Shown here one piece after another: positions 21,535-30,044 of a stretch of 32,000 nt of DNA. Origin of the DNA: Promethearchaeota archaeon (GTDB lineage: Archaea; Asgardarchaeota; Lokiarchaeia; Sigyniarchaeales; SOKP01); the NCBI GenBank assembly GCA_030606485.1, contig JAUWGH010000003.1:60001-92000 (forward strand), in the 5' to 3' direction. Made by a program: the position numbers and the translations under genes. The notes beneath the pieces are model-generated. The model saw nothing but the letters and a program-made list of their open reading frames with translations. It did no database searches and was not told where the DNA came from. Position 1 is the stretch's first letter. The number at the start of each line of letters is the position of its first letter.

Positions 21535-24500
21535 TTGGGAGATGGATGTCATATTCTAAAGAAAATTCTATTTAGTTCTCTAAAGAAAATTAGAGAAGAG
21601 TATAAATCTTTATTTAACTTTTCTTTAGATTTAATTTTTGTCCATGATTTGAAAGGGAACTTCCTAGACGCAAACGACATTGCATTAAAAACTCTCGGTT
21701 ATACAAAAGAAGAGATATTAAATTTATCTTTTAAAGATCTTATGAATAAAGATCAAGCACGAATGGCATTTGATATGATATATCAAGCTGTTGAAAAAGG
21801 AGAACAAACTAAGCTTTTTAAGTTTAAACTCAAAACAAAAGAGGGCAATTTTGTTTATTTAAAATCATCTGGAATTCCATTAAAAGAAAATGGAGAAGTT
21901 TATGCTGTTCTATGTATTGCAAAAGACATTACTGAACACAAGAAAGTGGAGCAAAGACTAAAAGAATCCGAAGACAAATATCAAATTATGTCGGAAAATG
22001 CAAACGATTTAATTTTTATATTAAATAATAAACTTAAATTCGAATATATCAATGAACCACCTCTTTTTAAAATATTAGGATATTCTATTAATGATATAAT
22101 GAATACAAATCTGTTAAAAGTCATACATCCAGATGATCTTGAAAGATTTTTAAGAGAATTCAATGAGAGCTTTGAAAAAATTGAAGGAACCGTAGAGGTA
22201 AGAGTTAAACATAAAGATGGACATTATATTTGGACAGAATCCGATGGAAATGTATTTACAGATAAAGATAGAGAACAAAAACTACTCGTAATTTTAAGAG
22301 ATATAACAAAAAGAAAAGAAGGAGAGAAAAAGTTAAGAGAATCAGAAGAAAAATATCGGTTAATATCAGAAAATGCAAATGATTTAATATCTATTCTTAA
22401 TAAGAACTTTAAATTAGAGTATCTCAATGAAAAATCCATTTTAAAGGCGTCAGGATTTACAAAGGAAGAATTAATTGGCAAATCTGTGTTGGATTTCATC
22501 CATCCTAACGATCTTAAACAATCCTTAAAAAAATTTAGAGAGGTCTTTAAAACAGGCGAGGGTGTAATAGACGTTAGAACTAGACGAAAGGATGGAACAT
22601 ATCGTTGGTTTGAAACTAGAGGAAGTACATTCATAGATAATAATGGTGAAGTGAAATATCTTCTAGTTTCAAGAGATATTACTGAAAGGAAAATAGTAGA
22701 GCAAAAATTAAAAAAATCTGAAGAAAAATATCGGTTGATTTCCGAAAATACATTTGATATTATTGCTATTCTTAATGATAAGTTTGAATTAGAATATATG
22801 AATAAACAACCAATTACGAGAAATGCGGGATATACAATTGGAGAGTTGATTAAAAAAAAAAAAGTATTAGATTTAATTCATCCTGATGATTTAGGGGAAT
22901 CATTAAAATTATTGAAAAAAGGAGAAGGTTTAGTAGAATATAGAACTTATCGAAAAGATGGAACGTACAGGTGGGTTGAAGGGAGATTAAACACCTTTTT
23001 AGATGCAAATGGGGAAAAGAAATATTTGATTATTTCGAGAGATATTAATGAAAAGAAAATAGCAAAACAAAAATTAAAAGAATCTGAAGAGAGTTTAACT
23101 AAATTAAATAAAGATTTAGAGAAAAGAATAGAAGAAAGGACTAAAAAATTAAAAGAATCCGAAGAAAAACATCGTCTTATTTCTGAAAACGCAAATGATT
23201 TAATCACTATTCTCAATCAAAAATTCGAACACGAATATATTAATGAGGAAACTTATTTGAAAATTTTAGGTTATTCTAACGATGATATGTTGGGAAAAAC
23301 CCGATTAGATTTAATACATCCAGATGATCTTAAACAAGGCATGAAAGCTTTAAGAAATGGCTTTAAGTATGGAGAAGGAATAGCAGAATTACGACTTAAA
23401 CATAAGGACGGGCACTATATATGGATTGAAACTAAAGGAAAAACTTTTATCGATTCTAACGGAGAAACTAAAGCATTAACAATTTCAAGAGATATTTCCG
23501 AGCGCAAGAAGGTGGAGAAAAAAATTGCTAATTTGGCAAAATTTCCTTCTGAAAACCCAAACCCTGTGTTAAGGGTAAGTAGAGAAGATGTACTTTATAT
23601 TAATAAAGCTGGACAAAATTTGTTTAAAATTATTGAGGGCAGTGAAATTCCGAAAATATTAAAGGATGATGTTGGTAAAGCATTTAGAAGTAATACAACT
23701 GGGGAATTAGAGGTAGAAATCAACAACCGAGTTTTCTCACTCGTTATTACACCTGTAAAAGAAGCAAATTATGCAAATGTTTACGGGAGGGACATTTCCG
23801 AGCGCAAGAAGGCAGAACAGAAATTAAAAGAATCTAAAGAAAAATATCGAAGTATTCTCGAAAATATAGAAGAAGGATATTTTGAACTTGATCTGAAGGG
23901 TAATTATACTTTTGTAAATGAATATCACAGTAATTTCTTTGGCGTTCCAAAAGATGAAATGATAGGAAAAAATTATGCAGATTTTGTAGATCAGAAATAT
24001 ATAAAAATGTTATTCAAGATCTTCAATCAAGTTTATAGAGAAGAAGTTCCTAGTGCAAGATTTGAGATTGAAGCTATTAGATATGACGGGGAGAAACGAA
24101 TCTATGAGGGTACTTGTAATTTAAAATTAGATTCTAATGGAAAAAAAATAGGTTTTTACAGTCTAACCCGTGATATCACAGAAAGAAAAGAGGCAGAAAA
24201 GTTAATAATAGAGGAGTTAAATAAACTCACAGAACTTGATCGAATGAGAAGAGAGTTTATATCTAGAGCATCACATGAGTTGAAGACTCCTTTAACTTCC
24301 ATTTATAGTACTACTCAACTCCTTTTAGAGTTATATAAAGACCAATTAGGAGAAAATGCCTTAGAGCTTGTTGAAATGATTGAGAAAGGAGGATATAGGT
24401 TGAAAGGATTGGTCGAAAAATTACTAGATTTTTCACGTATTGAATCAGGAAGATTCCAGTTAAATAAGAAAATGGAGAATGCTACTGAGATTATTAGAGA

Positions 24501-24933
24501 TTGTATAAGTAATATAGCTTATTTAGCAAATAAACGAAATATTATTTTGAATGTGGATCTTCCAGAAAGATTTAATATAGAATTAGATAGAGTCAGATTT
24601 GAACAAGTGGTTATAAATTTATTATCAAATGCTATTAAAAACACACCCCCTATTGGTGATATTAAGATTAATTTAAGCAAACAGAATGAATTTATGGTGC
24701 TATCTGTAAAAGATAGTGGGGTAGGTCTTACAAGAAGTGAAAAGAGAACGATTTTCAAAAAATTCGGAAAAATTGAAAGATATGGAAAGGGTTTAGATAT
24801 AATTTCTGAAGGATCCGGTCTCGGGCTTTTTATTTCGAAGGAAATAGTAGAGAATCATGGAGGTAAAATTTTTGTTGAGTCCAAAGGAAGAAATAAGGGT
24901 GCAAATTTTATTGTAAAATTACCTTTTAAATGA
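21535..24933 (+). CDS. Cytoplasmic multi-PAS (7 PAS/PAC units) sensor histidine kinase
   Basis: Repeated E.KY..I.EN..D / IHPDD / RDI.ERK units, H-box SHELKTPL, N-box NLLSNAIK, G1 DSGVG, G2 GSGLGLFIS. The TTG start is uncertain. Confidence 0.93.
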   Translation: MGDGCHILKKILFSSLKKIREEYKSLFNFSLDLIFVHDLKGNFLDANDIALKTLGYTKEEILNLSFKDLMNKDQARMAFDMIYQAVEKGEQTKLFKFKLKTKEGNFVYLKSSGIPLKENGEVYAVLCIAKDITEHKKVEQRLKESEDKYQIMSENANDLIFILNNKLKFEYINEPPLFKILGYSINDIMNTNLLKVIHPDDLERFLREFNESFEKIEGTVEVRVKHKDGHYIWTESDGNVFTDKDREQKLLVILRDITKRKEGEKKLRESEEKYRLISENANDLISILNKNFKLEYLNEKSILKASGFTKEELIGKSVLDFIHPNDLKQSLKKFREVFKTGEGVIDVRTRRKDGTYRWFETRGSTFIDNNGEVKYLLVSRDITERKIVEQKLKKSEEKYRLISENTFDIIAILNDKFELEYMNKQPITRNAGYTIGELIKKKKVLDLIHPDDLGESLKLLKKGEGLVEYRTYRKDGTYRWVEGRLNTFLDANGEKKYLIISRDINEKKIAKQKLKESEESLTKLNKDLEKRIEERTKKLKESEEKHRLISENANDLITILNQKFEHEYINEETYLKILGYSNDDMLGKTRLDLIHPDDLKQGMKALRNGFKYGEGIAELRLKHKDGHYIWIETKGKTFIDSNGETKALTISRDISERKKVEKKIANLAKFPSENPNPVLRVSREDVLYINKAGQNLFKIIEGSEIPKILKDDVGKAFRSNTTGELEVEINNRVFSLVITPVKEANYANVYGRDISERKKAEQKLKESKEKYRSILENIEEGYFELDLKGNYTFVNEYHSNFFGVPKDEMIGKNYADFVDQKYIKMLFKIFNQVYREEVPSARFEIEAIRYDGEKRIYEGTCNLKLDSNGKKIGFYSLTRDITERKEAEKLIIEELNKLTELDRMRREFISRASHELKTPLTSIYSTTQLLLELYKDQLGENALELVEMIEKGGYRLKGLVEKLLDFSRIESGRFQLNKKMENATEIIRDCISNIAYLANKRNIILNVDLPERFNIELDRVRFEQVVINLLSNAIKNTPPIGDIKINLSKQNEFMVLSVKDSGVGLTRSEKRTIFKKFGKIERYGKGLDIISEGSGLGLFISKEIVENHGGKIFVESKGRNKGANFIVKLPFK
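23494..23812 (+). repeat. Exact 19-nt direct repeat ATTTCCGAGCGCAAGAAGG, 300 nt apart, inside the kinase gene
   Basis: Copies at 23494-23512 and 23794-23812 flank the short sixth PAS unit. Confidence 0.9.
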
Positions 24934-25095: not shown

Positions 25096-26391
25096 GTGAA
25101 AAAGATGTCAAATAAAATAAAATCTGATTTTTCATTTTCAGAAATAGAAAATAAATTAAAATCTAAACCCTTATTCACGCTTATATTTGTCACAGTATTA
25201 ATGACTTTGTTTTTCATCCAAAGTTTAAAGGCTTATTTAACAGGATTATATATGGGCATGTATTATGCAGTATTTTCAGGGCAACCACAATATTATCCCA
25301 TCCTTCTTACTCTAATTTTTTTCTTTTTACCAGCCTTGACCAATACAATTGGTAAGAAGATTGAAAAAAGTCGTTTTATGATTTTTTCTATATATGTCAT
25401 TACTATCATTAGATTATTAATGGCATTTCATCTCCCATTTATATGGGAGGTTATCTGTTCGGGAGTAATAATCACATTTTACGGCTTTTTTATGAGCATA
25501 TTCCTTACGCTTTGGGTAGAGGAAGCTGATGATATTGAACTTAATCATAAAGTAATAATAATTACATTTTCTATTTTTTTTGCCTTTCTAATTGATTATT
25601 TAATTAGAACAATTGGTTTTTCCCAAGATATTTCACTATTACCACCGGGTTTAATCGCAGATTATTGGTTTATAACGCAATATATCTGGTTATTTATTCA
25701 AATTCCTTTAAGCTTTTTTTGTATCTATTTCACGAGATTGCATTTTCCAAGATTTTCCACAAAATCTAAAGAAGTTATAGAGAAAAAAGATAATTTCAGC
25801 ACTCTTTATTCCCTAATCTTTATAGGATTAGGAATGTTCTTATTTCTCTTAATTAATCTCTTCCTTTATCCCAACGCAATTGCCCAATATACTGCAACTA
25901 GTTATTCTTTTAACAATATTTTAAATATAGTTGCACTAATGATTGCGATTTGTATAATACTATTTGTAAACGTAGATTTAATTTCAAATATAAAAATAAT
26001 AGGTATTCTGAATGGTTTTATGATTTTGTCTCTGTGTCTATTCCTATTTCTTGGAAAAATTTTAACCTATATTGCAAGTATCCTCATTTCAATTTCTCTC
26101 GTAATCATGTATTTAAATTTCTATTTATTATTGTTCCGATTATTAAAAATAAATTTCAAATGGGAGAAATTAAAAACAATTTCTAATTCTATAACAATTG
26201 GACTCGCCTTTTTAGTTTTATTTATTTTATTGCATGCCTTTGCAGATGAATGGGCATATACATTTAAATTTTTAAAAGATCTAGGGCCATTCATATTACT
26301 GCTAGCAGGAATTATTTTTTCTATTTCAACTTGGTTTTCAATTATATTCAAAAAAAAAAGGAGGAGGGAATTAGATGAGGAAAAATTATAG
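25096..26391 (+). CDS. Polytopic membrane protein (~12 TM), resembling the membrane part of Cwh43/PGAP2IP
   Basis: About 12 hydrophobic segments. The penultimate segment VLFILLHAFADEWAYTFKF resembles, from memory, Cwh43 VLFVLAHVWVVAYAF and the human AW..AFKF. Overlaps the EEP gene by 17 nt. Confidence 0.6.
   Translation: MKKMSNKIKSDFSFSEIENKLKSKPLFTLIFVTVLMTLFFIQSLKAYLTGLYMGMYYAVFSGQPQYYPILLTLIFFFLPALTNTIGKKIEKSRFMIFSIYVITIIRLLMAFHLPFIWEVICSGVIITFYGFFMSIFLTLWVEEADDIELNHKVIIITFSIFFAFLIDYLIRTIGFSQDISLLPPGLIADYWFITQYIWLFIQIPLSFFCIYFTRLHFPRFSTKSKEVIEKKDNFSTLYSLIFIGLGMFLFLLINLFLYPNAIAQYTATSYSFNNILNIVALMIAICIILFVNVDLISNIKIIGILNGFMILSLCLFLFLGKILTYIASILISISLVIMYLNFYLLLFRLLKINFKWEKLKTISNSITIGLAFLVLFILLHAFADEWAYTFKFLKDLGPFILLLAGIIFSISTWFSIIFKKKRRRELDEEKL
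26360..26368 (+). promoter_or_regulatory. Shine-Dalgarno-like GGAGGAGGG for the EEP gene
   Basis: Ends 6 nt upstream of the ATG at 26375. Confidence 0.6.
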
Positions 26392-27202
26392 AATTATTCT
26401 TATATTTTTATTTTTCATTCCGCTGATATTTTCAATTATAATGTTTGGAGTTAGCGAAACACCTGTAGAAAGTTCAACAAAAAATGAATTTACGTTTATG
26501 ACATATAACATTCATTTTGGACAAGGTGGAGATAATTTACTAAATTTTGAACGGTTAGCGCAGAACATTTTAGTCGCAGAACCCGATATCATTGGACTTC
26601 AAGAAGTAGAAAATGGTAGAATGACAACTCAAGGGGTAGATATGGCATTTTGGTTAGCAAAAAGGTTAAATATGTATTATTATTATTATCCTGCAGAAAG
26701 TGAACATGCATGGGGTTGTGCACTCCTAAGTAAATATCCTATTACATTTAAAATTGGCGAACAGATACCAAGCATTTCTATGAGAAGGGTTTATATCCAT
26801 TGCGTCGTTAGAATAAATAGTTCACTCGAGTTAGATGTATTTGTAACACATCTTGGGATTAGAGGAGAGAATTTAACAAGACAAGTAAATTTTCTCGTCG
26901 AAAATATAGAGGAGGTTTTTACTTCTTCTACAAAACCTAAAATTTTAATGGGAGACTTTAATCTGCGTGAGAATTGGACTCATCCCGAAGAATCTACACT
27001 TTATCCGATTCATTCCTATTTTAACAATACCGCTGAAGCAGTTCCTATTGATCAACGAGCAAGAATTGATCATATTTACGCCTCGGGTTATCAAGAGGTT
27101 GTTGATTACTATATACTTAGCGATATGCTTCCTGAAGTTGATAATCCCGCTGAATTTGGTTCTGATCATTATCCTACCGTAGCAACTTTAACTTTTCCTT
27201 AA
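26375..27202 (+). CDS. Membrane-anchored endonuclease/exonuclease/phosphatase (EEP) family phosphohydrolase, Cwh43 C-terminal-domain-like
   Basis: N-terminal TM anchor. Complete EEP catalytic set: MTYNI, DIIGLQE, G.ALLSKYPI, THL, GDFN, IDHI, GSDHYP. Confidence 0.88.
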   Translation: MRKNYRIILIFLFFIPLIFSIIMFGVSETPVESSTKNEFTFMTYNIHFGQGGDNLLNFERLAQNILVAEPDIIGLQEVENGRMTTQGVDMAFWLAKRLNMYYYYYPAESEHAWGCALLSKYPITFKIGEQIPSISMRRVYIHCVVRINSSLELDVFVTHLGIRGENLTRQVNFLVENIEEVFTSSTKPKILMGDFNLRENWTHPEESTLYPIHSYFNNTAEAVPIDQRARIDHIYASGYQEVVDYYILSDMLPEVDNPAEFGSDHYPTVATLTFP

Positions 27203-27216
27203 AAAGGAATGAAAAT

Positions 27217-28617
27217 ATGGCATTTAAAGATAAGAGAAGATTATTAGGGGAACATCTTACATCTACAGAAATTTTTGAGGAATTGATTTTTCCTGAAATA
27301 AAAAATGATTTAAATAATTTTTTATGGATGGATCTTTATGCTGGAGAGGGAAATCTGATTTTCCCAATATTAAATCATCTTCCTAAAGAGGAAAGAATTG
27401 ATTTTTTTAAAGACCATATATTTTTATCGGATATTCAGGAAAAAATGGTTCATAAGTGCATTAAAACTGCTAAAAATTATGGAATTAAAGAAAAAATAAC
27501 TAAACAAAATATTCAATTACGTGATAATTTAAAGACTTTCCCTACTTTTTTAAAAAAATTCAAATATCCTGTGTATCATATTACAAATCCCCCCTATTTA
27601 TATTTAGGATACATCCGAAAGCATAAAGAAACGCAAAAATACTTATCCTATTTCGATAATAAAAATAAGGGGTATCAAGATTTATATCAAATTGCTATGA
27701 TTAATGATTTGAGAAATAAACTTGAAAATTTGATATATATTATCCCGTCTAATTTTTTATTTGGTGCATCAGTATCCAATAAGATTCGAGAAGATTTCCT
27801 AAAATACTACCATATCAAAAGAGTTGTTATCTTCGAAAAAAAGATCTTCGAATTTACTGGGACAAATATATGCTTATGTTTTTTTGAAAGAAAGGAGATC
27901 CCATCAATTGAAATTCAAGAATTTAATGGAATAAAAGTTAAAAAAGAAAACAAGATTTTAGAAAAAACTTATCTTTTAAAACCCAAATTTAAATACAGAG
28001 CAGGCTCAGTATTTGAAGAATTTCTCAAAAATCATCGCGCTGATAATCCATTACACATTAGATATTACTTATTAATGGAGGAAGTATCAAAAAACAACGG
28101 GATTATTAAAATTAACGTAATTGATGCAAATAATTATCAAAATAATGAATATAAAAAATTAACACTTGAAGTTAATGAAGTATTAGAAAAAAAAATCAAA
28201 TCGAATATATTATTTATTCGAACAGTGGATTCAGGTTCGGAGGAGGGAAGAGTAGGGATTAATATAATTAAAAATGAATTTAATGTTGACGGGATTCTTG
28301 TTTCAGGTAATACATATAGGACACATCCAATTCAAATTTTTTTCTCGCCACAACTCTCAGTAGAAAATCAGAAATTATTAAAAAATTATTTTAATCTTAT
28401 ATTAGAACACTTTCGAGAAAAACTTGATAGTGAATTTTTGACAACTTATAAGTATTCTAATTCGAAATACACGAGAAAGTATTTAGGGCTCACACAAGTA
28501 AAAGGTTTAATTGAAACTTTTCCTATTTTAGATTTTAATGAAGAACAGTTCGAAAATATTAAAAATTTAATTCGAAAAAGGAATGTAAATGATATCTTGA
28601 ATTGTTTAAAGAATTAA
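27217..28617 (+). CDS. N6-adenine DNA methyltransferase (gamma-type motif order)
   Basis: LGEHLT (motif X), DLYAGEGNL (motif I), ITNPPY (motif IV), YIIPSNFL, and a long C-terminal putative target-recognition region. Confidence 0.88.
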   Translation: MAFKDKRRLLGEHLTSTEIFEELIFPEIKNDLNNFLWMDLYAGEGNLIFPILNHLPKEERIDFFKDHIFLSDIQEKMVHKCIKTAKNYGIKEKITKQNIQLRDNLKTFPTFLKKFKYPVYHITNPPYLYLGYIRKHKETQKYLSYFDNKNKGYQDLYQIAMINDLRNKLENLIYIIPSNFLFGASVSNKIREDFLKYYHIKRVVIFEKKIFEFTGTNICLCFFERKEIPSIEIQEFNGIKVKKENKILEKTYLLKPKFKYRAGSVFEEFLKNHRADNPLHIRYYLLMEEVSKNNGIIKINVIDANNYQNNEYKKLTLEVNEVLEKKIKSNILFIRTVDSGSEEGRVGINIIKNEFNVDGILVSGNTYRTHPIQIFFSPQLSVENQKLLKNYFNLILEHFREKLDSEFLTTYKYSNSKYTRKYLGLTQVKGLIETFPILDFNEEQFENIKNLIRKRNVNDILNCLKN

Positions 28618-30044
28618 TTACCTTTATTAAAATTCTTATTTAATTCTTGAAGGAATGGAAGGAATTCTTTTGGTTGCCCAAATACTGGAATTTTTTTTAT
28701 TCTTAATTTTTTAATAGTATCGTATCTTATTTCAGGAAAATCTACACGCTGAATTATAATAAAAATAGGTTTATGATATTTTTGACCTGTACTTAATGCA
28801 TTTAATAAATTTTCTTCCCAGTTAATATATTTAAGGAATCTAAAACGGGGATCAAAATATAATGCGGGGATATCAAAAATCATTGCATCTATTTTTTTAT
28901 CAGATAAAGCAATTTCAAAAATTTTTGTTAAGGTTTTCATATCATAAAATTGAGCAGCAAAATCAATTGGGTTTCTTGGACTGGTACCTCTCATATAAAA
29001 TAATTTATCTATTTTTTTTTGAATATCATCATTAAATTTGGGAACATTTAAGCCATATTTTTCAACTAAATCAGTAAGCATCACCCCATATCCGCCAGAT
29101 ATGGATACAATAACAAAGTTTTTAGCTTTAAAAGTACCATAATAGTCTAAAATTAAAGCGCCACATAATAATTCTGTGAGAGTTTCAACTTGAATAACTC
29201 CAAATTGTTTAAATAACGCATCCCAAATTTCATTTTTTCCCGTAAGAGCTGCTGTATGTGTCTTTGCAGCTATTTGACCAGTATTTGAAACGCCTCCCTT
29301 TAATAATATAATAGGTTTTTTATTTTTTTCTAAAACTTTTCTTAAGACTTTACCCCTTCCTTCTTTTATGCCTTCCAAATACACAATAATATAATCTGTT
29401 TCATTATCCTGAGATAAATGAGCTAAAAGATCCACAAAATCAAGATCTGCTCCATTTCCGAAAGAAAACACTTTAGAAAAAGTTAAACCTAATTCCTTTG
29501 CCATAAATATTGCGAGATTGGCAAGTCCGCCTGATTGGCAGATCAATCCAATTCGACCTGGTTTACTTGGAAACCCTATGCGCCAAGCTATTCCTTTTTT
29601 GGGATAAGTAATTCCCATTCCATTTGGTCCCAAAATCCTGAGTTTATTTTGTGCATGTTTAATTAACTCTTTTTCCAATTGGATTCCTTCTTCCGTTCCC
29701 GAGTCTGAGAAGTCCGAGGTAAAAATACTTACTAATTTAACACCCTTTTCTACGCAATCATCAATCACTTTTAAGATCTGTTCTTTTGCAACTGCGATAA
29801 ATGCAAAATCGATTGGTTCTGGTATATCTTTAATTGAATTAAATATTTTTCCTTGAGTACCATCGTCAAACCCTGGAATTTTTTTAAGATTTGGATTAAT
29901 TGCAAAAATCTTTCCATCAAAATTCTCTTGATGTGCTTTAAGAAAAAAGTAGTTTCGACTTTTTGAAACTCCAATAATTGCTATGTTTTGTATTTCAGAT
30001 AAAAATGAAATATCTTTAATTTCTGGAAGATTATCATTAAACAT
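28614..30044 (-). CDS. CoA-binding protein, ADP-forming acyl-CoA synthetase (ACD) alpha-subunit-like
   Basis: IAIIGVS, ILGPNGMG, QSGG, FSFGN.ADLDF, YLEG, LKGG...G..AAKTHTAAL (phospho-His), ISGG.GV..TD, PRNPID. No ATP-grasp domain. Confidence 0.88.
   Translation of the reverse strand: MFNDNLPEIKDISFLSEIQNIAIIGVSKSRNYFFLKAHQENFDGKIFAINPNLKKIPGFDDGTQGKIFNSIKDIPEPIDFAFIAVAKEQILKVIDDCVEKGVKLVSIFTSDFSDSGTEEGIQLEKELIKHAQNKLRILGPNGMGITYPKKGIAWRIGFPSKPGRIGLICQSGGLANLAIFMAKELGLTFSKVFSFGNGADLDFVDLLAHLSQDNETDYIIVYLEGIKEGRGKVLRKVLEKNKKPIILLKGGVSNTGQIAAKTHTAALTGKNEIWDALFKQFGVIQVETLTELLCGALILDYYGTFKAKNFVIVSISGGYGVMLTDLVEKYGLNVPKFNDDIQKKIDKLFYMRGTSPRNPIDFAAQFYDMKTLTKIFEIALSDKKIDAMIFDIPALYFDPRFRFLKYINWEENLLNALSTGQKYHKPIFIIIQRVDFPEIRYDTIKKLRIKKIPVFGQPKEFLPFLQELNKNFNKGN

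What the first reader, a model, noticed from the sequence alone, without database searches (positions are those of the whole stretch)
25096..27202. Split Cwh43/PGAP2IP-like system: 12-TM protein plus membrane-anchored EEP enzyme, a candidate prokaryotic relative of the eukaryotic GPI-lipid remodelase
Seen in the sequence: a ~12-TM gene overlapping, with its own SD, a gene encoding one TM anchor plus an EEP domain. This is the architecture of eukaryotic PGAP2IP / the C-terminal two-thirds of yeast Cwh43, cut at the last TM. Against the Cwh43 sequence as I recall it, several stretches match beyond generic EEP motifs: NIHFG vs TIHFG, WLAKRLNMY vs KLAHDLNMY, HAWGCALLSKYPI vs HTWGCVLLSKFPI, DVFVTHLG vs DVFVFHSG. 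The membrane partner also has VLFILLHAF..WAYTFKF vs VLFVLAHVWVVAYAF. Established: Cwh43 exchanges the lipid moiety of GPI anchors, and archaea make inositol ether lipids. Unlike Cwh43, this protein keeps the full EEP catalytic set (N, E, GDFN, DH, SDH). Inference: an outward-facing phospholipase/head-group transferase acting on inositol-type archaeal lipids, possibly close to the ancestor of Cwh43. I cannot confirm whether this has been described.
Basis: partly seen in the sequence, partly recalled or inferred. Interest (0 to 1): 0.82.

Follow-up and report, generated by a model that had tools for sequence, protein, structure and literature searches.

The report
Split membrane phosphodiesterase related to Cwh43/PGAP2IP
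An Asgard archaeon encodes, as two coupled genes, a transporter-shaped 12-helix membrane protein and a membrane-anchored, outward-facing phosphodiesterase; together they are a split, distant prokaryotic relative of the core of the eukaryotic GPI-anchor lipid remodelase Cwh43/PGAP2IP, and their substrate is unknown.

Summary
A 431-aa 12-helix gene (25096-26391) overlaps by 17 nt a 275-aa gene (26375-27202) that has its own GGAGG site. The second gene encodes one anchor helix plus an EEP domain with a complete catalytic set.

The EEP scores best against Pfam's PGAP2IP-type model (77 bits). The membrane protein has a major-facilitator (MFS) fold and is homologous to the membrane part of fused 12TM-TM13-EEP proteins (hhalign 99%). 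Those fused proteins align over their full length (100%, E 1e-49) with Asgard proteins that pass all three Pfam PGAP2IP models. The window's own membrane protein hits neither PGAP2IP membrane model.

The pair recurs in 28 of 29 related loci, in three clades, and the trees of the two genes match. Complex prediction scores 0.76 against 0.00 for controls.

The split lineages sit on the opposite side of the EEP tree from the PGAP2IP-type proteins, so they are a side branch, not close to the Cwh43 ancestor. The family also occurs in Chloroflexota and Bacillota. No GWT1, PIG-M or PIG-U was found in this genome.

A 2023 paper had already clustered Asgard/Chloroflexota EEPs with Cwh43, and this scan had met fused and split forms on other DNA. 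Substrate unknown. This is a new variant of a known, uncharacterised family.

The parts
25096..26391 (+). Gene for the 12-helix membrane subunit (431 aa from the GTG; the likely start is the ATG at 25105). MFS fold, with both termini in the cytoplasm.
   Evidence: ORF. Start context. AF2 model pLDDT 84, 12 helices. Foldseek matches MFS transporters at E about 1e-5, TM 0.55-0.61. Atlas TM 0.66-0.75 to MFS clusters. hhalign to the membrane part of fused proteins: 99.15%, E 3.8e-19.
26350..26359 (+). A10 homopolymer in the 3' end of the membrane gene. Same-genus relatives read AAATCAAAAAA here, which changes only the last residues of the cytoplasmic tail and where the gene stops.
   Evidence: A contig of run X2 confirms A10; a strain in X3 carries the other form.
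26360..26368 (+). Shine-Dalgarno-like GGAGGAGGG, 6 nt upstream of the EEP start codon and inside the membrane gene.
   Evidence: Read. A GGAGG-like motif is at the same place in 9 of 10 relatives' junctions.
26375..26391 (+). 17-nt overlap of the two genes in different frames. Likely translational coupling (inferred).
   Evidence: Relatives abut, overlap, or are a few nt apart.
26375..27202 (+). Gene for the anchored EEP phosphodiesterase subunit (275 aa).
   Evidence: PF23226 77 bits, PF03372 66 bits. AF2 pLDDT 86. BLASTP to the PGAP2IP-type Asgard protein of G111: 28% identity, E 6e-22, residues 8-275.
26393..26452 (+). Anchor helix (residues 7-26) after the basic MRKNYR. It is the equivalent of TM13 of the fused proteins.
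   Evidence: Hydropathy and fused paralogues. Conserved in all split clades. In the complex model it packs between TM5 and TM8.
26483..27193 (+). EEP catalytic domain (residues 37-273). N45, E77, H159, D194, N196, D232, D264 and H265 are invariant in split homologues.

Best explanation
The two genes encode the two subunits of one membrane enzyme. It is a split version of a widespread prokaryotic protein made of a 12-helix MFS-fold domain, a 13th helix and an extracytoplasmic EEP phosphodiesterase. That protein family is homologous to the PGAP2IP/Cwh43 C-terminal module of eukaryotes.

Shown:
- Homology of both parts to the fused family.
- Conserved pairing of the two genes.
- Matching trees of the two genes.
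- A complete set of EEP catalytic residues.

Inferred:
- The genes are co-transcribed and translationally coupled.
- The membrane subunit inserts with both ends in the cytoplasm.
- The EEP subunit inserts N-in, so the enzyme sits outside. Its anchor helix docks in the lateral cleft between TM5 and TM8.
- The catalytic domain rests on outer loops L5-6, L7-8 and L11-12, which carry most of the invariant polar residues of the membrane subunit.
- The loops directly after catalytic N45 and E77 lie in this interface, so the active site probably faces the membrane subunit.

Most likely mechanism (inferred): the MFS-fold subunit takes an amphipathic phosphodiester substrate from the outer leaflet and presents it to the EEP domain. 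The substrate would be a polar lipid head group, or a phospho-substituent on a lipid-linked or surface glycan. The EEP domain then cleaves or transfers at the phosphodiester bond with a divalent metal. The substrate itself is not known.
For: Family membership:
- EEP family: PF23226 77 bits.
- Atlas fold match to a eukaryotic 'Protein cwh43' cluster: TM 0.75 over residues 16-275, anchor helix included.
- Membrane subunit: MFS fold.
- hhalign A1 against fused proteins: 99.15%, 368 columns.
- A profile search of 1.84 billion proteins finds both split (about 400 aa) and fused (620-770 aa) forms.

Bridge to PGAP2IP:
- Asgard proteins of G111 and G178 pass PF23022 (42 and 29 bits), PF23021 (83 and 64 bits) and PF23226 (109 and 100 bits).
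- They align with the fused family at 100%, E 9.6e-50, 607 columns.
- Split membrane genes of clade f7 hit PF23021 at 29.2, 26.6 and 21.1 bits. Their HMM hits the window protein at E 1e-23.

The two genes as a unit:
- Pair conserved in 28 of 29 loci.
- The same three split clades appear in the EEP tree and the membrane-domain tree.

Binding (a model's confidence, not a measurement):
- ipSAE 0.76, best control 0.00. That mark was reached by 58 of 80 solved complexes and 2 of 110 mismatched pairs.
- Runs agree in at least 50% of contacts; partner pLDDT is at least 79. My own alignments were used, so the counts hold only roughly.
- No like complex is in the PDB.

Catalysis and substrate class:
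- Catalytic residues are invariant.
- The only characterised members of this EEP subgroup act on sugar- or lipid-linked phosphodiesters: GlcNAc-PDase, and Cwh43 by genetics (PMC10704324, PMC4962981).
Against: - The window's membrane protein does not itself match PF23021 or PF23022.
- Its direct profile comparison with the PGAP2IP-type Asgard proteins is weak: 7.5%, E 0.005.
- No canonical eukaryotic Cwh43/PGAP2IP sequence was compared directly. The eukaryotic side is represented only by Pfam models and Atlas cluster labels.
- The neighbours of the pair are not conserved, so context gives no hint of a pathway.
- The nearest solved EEP structures are nucleic-acid or nucleotide enzymes (Nocturnin, TDP2, CNOT6L), at TM about 0.6.
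- An MFS fold is equally compatible with solute transport.
- Orientation and interface rest on predicted models only.
Confidence: 0.6

Rival explanations
1. Coupled scavenging system. The outward-facing EEP cleaves an external phosphodiester (nucleic acid, glycerophosphodiester or similar) and the MFS partner imports the product. The fusion or pairing only keeps the two activities together.
For: - The membrane subunit has the fold of solute and lysolipid transporters: FLVCR, SLC37/G6PT, Spns, NorA.
- 5 of 23 family members give sub-threshold MFS_1 hits.
- The EEP superfamily holds many nucleases and phosphatases.
Against: - Invariant polar residues of the membrane subunit cluster in the outer loops and the outer helix ends, which contact the EEP in the model, not at mid-membrane.
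- I see no MFS motif A in the TM2-TM3 loop of the alignment consensus (read by eye).
- A 13th helix wedged at the TM5/TM8 cleft would hinder rocker-switch movement (model only).
- The characterised members of the PF23226 subgroup are not nucleases (PMC10704324).
Confidence: 0.2
2. A true GPI-type lipid remodelase. The pair exchanges the lipid part of an inositol-phospholipid anchor on proteins or glycolipids, as proposed for Cwh43.
For: - Homology to the Cwh43/PGAP2IP module.
- Cwh43 is held to swap diacylglycerol or phosphatidic acid for ceramide or ceramide-phosphate on GPI anchors (PMC4962981).
- A recent preprint traces eukaryotic GPI-anchor synthesis to Asgard archaea (PMC12338589).
- DUF998/Frag1-clan genes exist in this genome.
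Against: - GWT1, PIG-M and PIG-U models find nothing in this 100%-complete genome. Those searches found nothing in any control genome either, so this is weak.
- The family is common in Chloroflexota and Bacillota, which are not known to make GPI anchors.
- The split clades sit on the branch away from the PGAP2IP-type proteins.
- The Frag1 hits score better as DUF998 and are not linked to the pair.
Confidence: 0.12
3. The split is a broken fused gene (a frameshift at the A10 run), or two unrelated neighbours, with no joint function.
For: - A homopolymer of ten A lies 15 nt upstream of the second start codon, and the two genes are in different frames.
Against: - The split is kept in 28 of 29 loci across three clades with different junction sequences, and nearly all junctions examined carry a start codon preceded by a GGAGG motif.
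- An independent contig confirms the junction.
- The trees of the two genes match.
- Over 100 clusters of about 425-aa homologues exist.
Confidence: 0.02

Closest known systems
Mammalian PGAP2IP (CWH43 C-terminal homologue) and the C-terminal two-thirds of yeast Cwh43
   Same: - Same order of modules: first 6-TM bundle, second 6-TM bundle, a linking helix, then a PF23226-type EEP domain.
- The window EEP passes PF23226.
- Fused Asgard relatives pass PF23022, PF23021 and PF23226.
- The Atlas fold match to a Cwh43 cluster includes the anchor helix.
   Different: - Two polypeptides instead of one.
- The window membrane subunit does not reach either Pfam PGAP2IP membrane model.
- There is no Frag1/PGAP2-like N-terminal domain.
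- The PF23226 match stops at profile position 156 of 239, and the C-terminal third fits the generic EEP model better.
- The full catalytic set is present here. The state of Cwh43's set was not checked.
- It lies on a different branch of the EEP tree from the PGAP2IP-type Asgard proteins.
Fused prokaryotic 12TM-TM13-EEP proteins, annotated 'endonuclease/exonuclease/phosphatase family protein', of Asgard archaea, Anaerolineae/Chloroflexota and Bacillota; uncharacterised
   Same: - Homologous over both parts.
- Two fused paralogues are in the same genome.
- The same conserved outer-loop motifs appear in the hhalign alignment.
   Different: - Gene fission between TM12 and TM13.
- The split forms fall into three clades interleaved with divergent fused forms. 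This means one to three fission or fusion events, not resolved.
GlcNAc-PDase, the secreted bacterial EEP phosphodiesterases that remove phosphocholine or phosphoethanolamine from GlcNAc-6-P (PMC10704324)
   Same: - Same EEP subgroup. That paper's clustering places an 'Asgardarchaeota/Chloroflexota' subcluster, Cwh43 and PGAP2IP in the GlcNAc-PDase group.
- Atlas fold neighbours with PF23226 are soluble bacterial EEPs of this kind.
   Different: - Those enzymes are soluble, with a signal peptide and no membrane partner.
- The paper notes that the Asgard/Chloroflexota group differs in size and domain organisation, and did not study it.
MFS lipid transporters coupled to lipid-modifying enzymes, such as LplT with Aas (from my own knowledge, not tested here)
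   Same: - An MFS-fold protein paired or fused with an enzyme acting on an amphipathic lipid substrate.
- A resemblance in how it may work only.
   Different: - No sequence relationship was shown.
- That enzyme is an acyltransferase on the cytoplasmic side, not an outward-facing phosphodiesterase.

Membership tests
Pfam PF23226 (PGAP2IP C-terminal nuclease-like EEP domain) | Score over the curated cut-off of 27 bits | tested here: met
   77 bits, E 1.8e-21, residues 37-193 on profile positions 2-156 of 239. This is higher than the generic PF03372 at 66 bits. The whole-genome search gives 76.9 bits.
EEP superfamily (PF03372), active enzyme | Catalytic and metal-binding residues: N, E, H, D-x-N, D and S-D-H | tested here: met
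   N45, E77, H159, D194, N196, D232, D264 and H265 are invariant in 19 split homologues. The EEP fold is modelled at pLDDT 86. Foldseek matches EEP enzymes at E 1e-15 to 1e-13.
Pfam PF23021 (PGAP2IP second 6-TM domain) | Score over the cut-off of 27 bits in the membrane subunit | tested here: not met
   The window protein gives no hit at E up to 10, and there is none in the whole genome. Family members reach 20.5 bits at residues 235-388. Split genes of clade f7 reach 29.2 and 26.6 bits. Fused G111 and G178 reach 83 and 64 bits.
Pfam PF23022 (PGAP2IP first 6-TM domain) | Score over the cut-off of 27 bits in the membrane subunit | tested here: not met
   No hit in the window protein or in the genome. 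In the phylum sample only G111 (43.9 bits) and G178 (35.2 bits) pass.
PGAP2IP/Cwh43 module as a whole | 12 TM helices, a linking helix and an EEP domain in one polypeptide | tested here: not met
   Here there are two genes with separate starts, cut between TM12 and TM13 of the fused forms.
PGAP2IP/Cwh43 module as a whole | Homology of the membrane domain to that of PGAP2IP | tested here: inconclusive
   The transitive chain is strong: A1 to A2 at 99.15%, then A2 to A5, the proteins passing all three Pfam models, at 100%, E 9.6e-50. The direct A1 to A5 comparison is weak: 7.5%, E 0.0047, 299 collinear columns. No eukaryotic sequence was available.
Yeast-type Cwh43 | N-terminal Frag1/PGAP2-like domain (PF10277) in the same protein or operon | tested here: not met
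   There is none at the locus. The genome's two PF10277 hits lie on other contigs and score better as DUF998.
GPI-anchor pathway | Core GPI biosynthesis genes in the same genome (GWT1, PIG-M, PIG-U) | tested here: inconclusive
   No hit for PF06423, PF05007 or PF06728 in the 100%-complete genome. None of these models found anything in any control genome, so the sensitivity is unknown.
GPI lipid remodelase activity | Exchange of the lipid moiety on an inositol-phosphate anchor | not testable with these tools
   This needs biochemistry or genetics.
Major facilitator superfamily | 12-helix fold of two 6-helix bundles | tested here: met
   Foldseek against the PDB gives 125 matches at E 0.001 or better; all 50 listed are MFS transporters, over the full length, TM 0.5-0.61. 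Atlas TM is 0.66-0.75.
Major facilitator superfamily | Pfam MFS_1 over its cut-off, and signature motif A in loop TM2-TM3 | tested here: not met
   The window protein has no MFS_1 hit. 5 of 23 relatives give sub-threshold hits, the best at 19.8 bits against a cut-off of 33.4. I see no G-x3-D-R/K-x-G-R-R/K motif in the consensus (by eye).

The most novel reading that the evidence does not exclude
The pair is a naturally separated, catalytically intact prototype of the GPI lipid remodelase. An MFS-fold subunit extracts an inositol-type archaeal lipid, or a lipid-anchored surface molecule, from the outer leaflet. The EEP subunit then performs a phosphodiester transfer (lipid or head-group exchange) rather than plain hydrolysis. 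That would mean Cwh43-type anchor remodelling chemistry existed in Asgard archaea before eukaryotes. It would also mean that the unknown role of the PGAP2IP membrane domain is substrate presentation by a transporter-derived fold.
Probability: 0.12. Interest if true: 0.85.

Novelty: new variant of a known kind. Interest (0 to 1): 0.5.

Why it matters
Genetics has tied Cwh43/PGAP2IP to GPI-anchor ceramide remodelling, and human CWH43 variants to normal-pressure hydrocephalus. The papers read here still call the role of its EEP domain vague, and I found no solved structure.

The prokaryotic family gives a simpler object to study. The split form gives two separately expressible subunits with a full catalytic set. 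That makes three questions directly testable: what does the membrane domain do, does the enzyme hydrolyse or transfer, and on what substrate.

The MFS fold of the membrane part suggests a concrete hypothesis, lateral substrate delivery. I did not find this stated in the papers I searched.

For eukaryogenesis the value is limited. The family is not confined to Asgard archaea. The split lineage is a side branch. The Asgard proteins that look most like PGAP2IP are fused ones in another family (G111, G178).

Tried and rejected
1. Obtaining a canonical eukaryotic Cwh43/PGAP2IP sequence for direct alignment and a rooted tree.
- A 'longer' search with a TM2+EEP profile returned only two Galdieria proteins. 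They score weakly on PF23226 (33 and 31 bits) and group with a prokaryotic protein.

2. A solved structure of the family: none. Only soluble EEPs matched.

3. Language-model look-alikes of the membrane protein gave only MFS-clan families and no PGAP2IP cluster.

4. Direct hhalign of A1 against the single G111 protein was uninformative.

5. Expression: no RNA holder is listed among public runs. Nothing can be said about expression.

6. Bacterial-type promoter and terminator scans were at the chance level and do not suit an archaeon.

7. Frameshift or pseudogene reading of the split: rejected.

8. Frag1 hits as evidence for a PGAP2 partner: rejected. They are DUF998-type and unlinked to the pair.

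9. Conserved gene neighbourhood beyond the pair: none seen in three diverged contigs.
Full report
**1. What is in the sequence**

On the + strand, an ORF at 25096-26391 (431 aa from a GTG) is followed by an ORF at 26375-27202 (275 aa).
- The likelier start of the first gene is the ATG at 25105, because relatives are 424-428 aa.
- The two genes overlap by 17 nt in different frames.
- GGAGGAGGG (26360-26368) lies 6 nt upstream of the second ATG.
- A run of ten A (26350-26359) precedes it. Same-genus genomes read AAATCAAAAAA there, which only alters the last residues of the first protein.
- A contig from another sample spans the junction with no difference, and a strain in a third sample has the other form. 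The split is therefore not an assembly error.

The genome is a 3.75-Mb, 13-contig assembly at 100% completeness, with about 28% G+C in the window. Its relatives are named Promethearchaeota, which are Asgard archaea. The DNA turns up in cold-seep and marine-sediment metagenomes.

**2. The enzyme subunit**

Sequence evidence:
- The best Pfam match of the 275-aa protein is PF23226, the PGAP2IP C-terminal nuclease-like domain. It scores 77 bits against a cut-off of 27, over residues 37-193 and profile positions 2-156 of 239.
- The generic EEP model PF03372 follows at 66 bits and covers the whole domain.
- A basic N-terminus (MRKNYR) and a 20-residue hydrophobic helix precede the domain.
- In 19 split homologues N45, E77, H159, D194, N196, D232, D264 and H265 are invariant. 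The catalytic set is complete.

Structure evidence:
- The AF2 model (pLDDT 86) matches many solved EEP enzymes without preference: Nocturnin, TDP2 and CNOT6L, at TM about 0.6.
- Among predicted structures it matches soluble bacterial PF23226 proteins.
- It also matches a eukaryotic cluster labelled 'Protein cwh43', at TM 0.75 over residues 16-275. That range includes the anchor helix.

**3. The membrane subunit**

- It has no Pfam hit of its own.
- Its AF2 model (pLDDT 84, pTM 0.87) has 12 long helices.
- The model matches MFS transporters over the full length. Against the PDB: FLVCR1/2, Spns, NorA and SLC37A4 at E about 1e-5 and TM 0.5-0.61. Against the Atlas: TM 0.66-0.75.
- Five of 23 relatives give sub-threshold MFS_1 hits. 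Two give sub-threshold PF23021 hits on residues 235-388, which is the second six-helix bundle.
- By the positive-inside rule both ends are cytoplasmic. K/R-rich segments are the N-terminus, loops 2-3, 6-7 and 10-11, and the tail. Outer loops 1-2, 3-4, 5-6 and 7-8 carry no K or R (sequence, helices).
- Most invariant polar residues lie in the outer loops or the outer helix ends: R106, D167, D178, S180, W191, Q195, Y196, Y258 and H380.

**4. The pair is a split form of a fused protein family**

- Searching longer proteins with the EEP gave 210 hits, mostly 640-700 aa. They come from Njord-, Hod-, Heimdall- and Lokiarchaeial bins, Anaerolineae and Bacillota, and carry PF03372 plus PF23226.
- The profile of the split membrane family (A1) aligns with the N-terminal 400 residues of 30 such proteins (A2) at 99.15%, E 3.8e-19, over 368 columns.
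- A profile search of 1.84 billion proteins found both split (about 400 aa) and fused (620-770 aa) forms.
- The fused proteins have a 13th helix between TM12 and the EEP domain. The cut in the split form falls exactly between TM12 and TM13.
- The window's own genome also has two fused paralogues, scoring 84.7 and 55.1 bits on PF23226.

**5. The bridge to PGAP2IP**

- The Pfam models of the two PGAP2IP membrane domains find nothing in this genome.
- In a 201-genome sample of the phylum, two genomes of another family (G111 and G178) hold single proteins that pass all three models. G111 scores PF23022 42 bits, PF23021 83 bits and PF23226 109 bits. G178 scores 29, 64 and 100 bits.
- These two proteins align with the fused family A2 over the full length: 100%, E 9.6e-50, 607 columns.
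- The window EEP aligns with the G111 protein at 28% identity, E 6e-22, anchor helix included.
- Split membrane genes of another clade (f7) reach PF23021 at 29.2, 26.6 and 21.1 bits. Their HMM hits the window protein at E 1e-23.
- The direct comparison of A1 with the two PGAP2IP-type proteins is weak but collinear: E 0.005.
- By language-model features, the G111 protein sits beside a eukaryotic cluster carrying all three PGAP2IP domains (0.96) and beside Chloroflexota and Thermoplasmatota fused clusters (0.97-0.98).

I conclude that the split pair, the fused prokaryotic proteins and PGAP2IP/Cwh43-C belong to one family of modules. The window's membrane subunit is a divergent member whose link to PGAP2IP is transitive.

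**6. The pair behaves as a unit**

- In 28 of 29 other loci with a homologue of the membrane gene, an EEP gene with an anchor helix follows at once. The remaining locus ends about 107 nt after the membrane gene.
- Nine of the ten junctions examined have a GGAGG-like motif before the start codon.
- The neighbouring genes differ from locus to locus.
- In the phylum sample the split membrane gene or a relative was found in 30 of 201 genomes, including 12 of 40, 12 of 19 and 4 of 43 genomes in three families. PF23226 genes were found in 83 of 201, mostly fused. These genomes are kin and a sample, so these are counts and not frequencies.
- Quick maximum-likelihood trees of the EEP domains and of the membrane domains show the same three split clades. 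One of them (f12) is sister to the same fused protein in both trees. The label 'split' needs three changes on either tree, and well-supported branches force at least two on the EEP tree. The number of fissions (one to three, or re-fusions) is not resolved.
- Complex prediction with both alignments gave ipSAE 0.76 (three runs: 0.76, 0.78, 0.66) against 0.00 for the best of three controls. That mark was reached by 58 of 80 solved complexes and 2 of 110 mismatched pairs. The runs agree in at least 50% of contacts and the partner's pLDDT is at least 79. My own alignments were used, so the counts hold only roughly. This is the model's confidence, not a measurement. I found no solved complex of this kind that it could have memorised.
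- In the model the anchor helix lies between TM5 and TM8. EEP residues 50-63, 80-97 and 104-112 touch outer loops L5-6, L7-8 and L11-12 of the membrane subunit. Those EEP segments directly follow the catalytic N45 and E77.

**7. How it most likely works**

Shown:
- Homology, pairing, matching trees and a complete active site.

Inferred:
- Co-translation of the two genes.
- An N-in anchor with the enzyme outside.
- A stable complex in which the conserved outer face of the MFS-fold subunit forms a floor under the active site.

My best reading is that the membrane subunit delivers an amphipathic phosphodiester substrate from the outer leaflet to the EEP domain, which cleaves or transfers at the phosphodiester. 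Two facts about relatives bear on this.
- The only characterised relatives in this EEP subgroup remove phosphocholine or phosphoethanolamine from GlcNAc-6-P (PMC10704324).
- Cwh43 is held, from genetics, to exchange the lipid of GPI anchors (PMC4962981).

The substrate here is unknown.

Rivals:
- A scavenging enzyme coupled to an importer (0.2).
- A true GPI-type remodelase (0.12).
- A broken gene (0.02).

**8.

Right:
- The anatomy, the cut site, the EEP family, the intact catalytic set and the existence of fused Asgard forms.

Not supported:
- Closeness to the ancestor of Cwh43. A branch with SH-aLRT 98 separates the PGAP2IP-type Asgard proteins, the main fused clade and the Galdieria proteins (42 rows) from all 29 split forms plus 11 divergent fused forms.
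- The family is also not confined to Asgard archaea.

Untested:
- The inositol-lipid or GPI idea. GWT1, PIG-M and PIG-U models find nothing in this genome, but they found nothing in any control genome either.

**9. Novelty**

- Pfam already has the three PGAP2IP models, and databases already label the fused prokaryotic proteins as EEP family proteins.
- A 2023 paper placed an 'Asgardarchaeota/Chloroflexota' subcluster in the same EEP group as Cwh43 and PGAP2IP. It noted a different size and domain organisation and did not study the subcluster (PMC10704324).
- A 2025 preprint states that GPI-anchor synthesis is Asgard-derived. I found no mention of PGAP or Cwh43 in its main text (PMC12338589).
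- This scan had already met the fused form in an Anaerolineae genome (a follow-up agent reached the same reading), another split pair, and the fused paralogue of this same genome.
- In my searches I did not find described: the split two-gene form and its recurrence, the MFS fold of the membrane part, the predicted docking of TM13 at the TM5/TM8 cleft, or the Asgard proteins that pass all three PGAP2IP models. My literature searches were few and cover open-access papers only.

Verdict: a real, conserved, two-subunit variant of a known but uncharacterised family. It is of moderate interest, mainly as a tractable model for the mechanism of Cwh43/PGAP2IP.

Noticed in passing
L045:1441-3330 (G111) and L046:1435-3366 (G178), another family of the same phylum: Single fused Asgard proteins (630 and 644 aa) that pass all three Pfam PGAP2IP models (first 6-TM, second 6-TM and EEP). 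They are the most PGAP2IP-like prokaryotic proteins seen here and would be better candidates than the window's pair for the eukaryotic connection.
   Followed up: partly
own genome, G000:C2:131074-134565 (L001) and G000:C4:181177-184716 (L003): Two fused 12TM-TM13-EEP paralogues in the same genome as the split pair. The C4 copy is very divergent: a long branch in both trees and 55 bits on PF23226.
   Followed up: partly
window 26350-26359: A10 homopolymer where same-genus genomes read AAATCAAAAAA. This shifts the frame of the last few codons of the membrane gene, so it ends 17 nt inside the EEP gene instead of just before it. Both forms occur in public assemblies.
   Followed up: yes
window 21535-24933 (+): A 1132-aa protein directly upstream whose translation shows several similar PAS-like repeats and a histidine-kinase-like C-terminus (no family search was run on it). 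A PAS histidine kinase also lies just downstream of the pair in one relative (L007). It is not conserved in the other loci.
   Followed up: no
window 27217-28617 (+) and 28614-30044 (-): Downstream genes: a 466-aa protein with a weak N-6 DNA methylase match (28.5 bits), and a 476-aa ADP-forming acyl-CoA synthetase-like protein (Succ_CoA_lig plus CoA_binding). Neither is conserved next to the pair elsewhere.
   Followed up: no
own genome, L037:3105-3731 (-), L038:2172-2954 (+) and L038:2992-3738 (+): Three DUF998-family membrane proteins. Two also pass the Frag1/PGAP2 model (38 and 31 bits), and two stand in tandem. None of the 14 control genomes hit Frag1. Their relation to the Cwh43 N-terminal domain is at clan level, and they are not linked to the EEP genes.
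   Followed up: partly
L007:1-811 and L007:3556-4848: In one relative's contig a second anchored PF23226 EEP gene lies 4 kb upstream of the pair, and a canonical MFS_1/Sugar_tr transporter gene lies directly upstream of the split membrane gene.
   Followed up: no
L006:7136-9874 (-): A 912-aa protein with an actin domain lies next to the split pair in a diverged relative's contig.
   Followed up: no
P0314 and P0315 (Galdieria, 845 and 843 aa), P0313: Red-alga proteins with a long N-terminal region and an EEP domain that scores only 31-33 bits on PF23226. They form a long-branched group with an unnamed metagenomic protein (P0313) on the same side of the EEP tree as the main prokaryotic fused clade. 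They do not look like canonical Cwh43 and may be a transfer from prokaryotes.
   Followed up: no
P0316 (796 aa, Omnitrophica), an Atlas cluster of Verrucomicrobiota, and P0311 (982 aa): PF23226-type EEP domains are also found fused to a type I phosphodiesterase domain (PF01663). In one fused 12TM-EEP protein there is also a weak glycoside hydrolase 16 match at the C-terminus (E 0.002).
   Followed up: no
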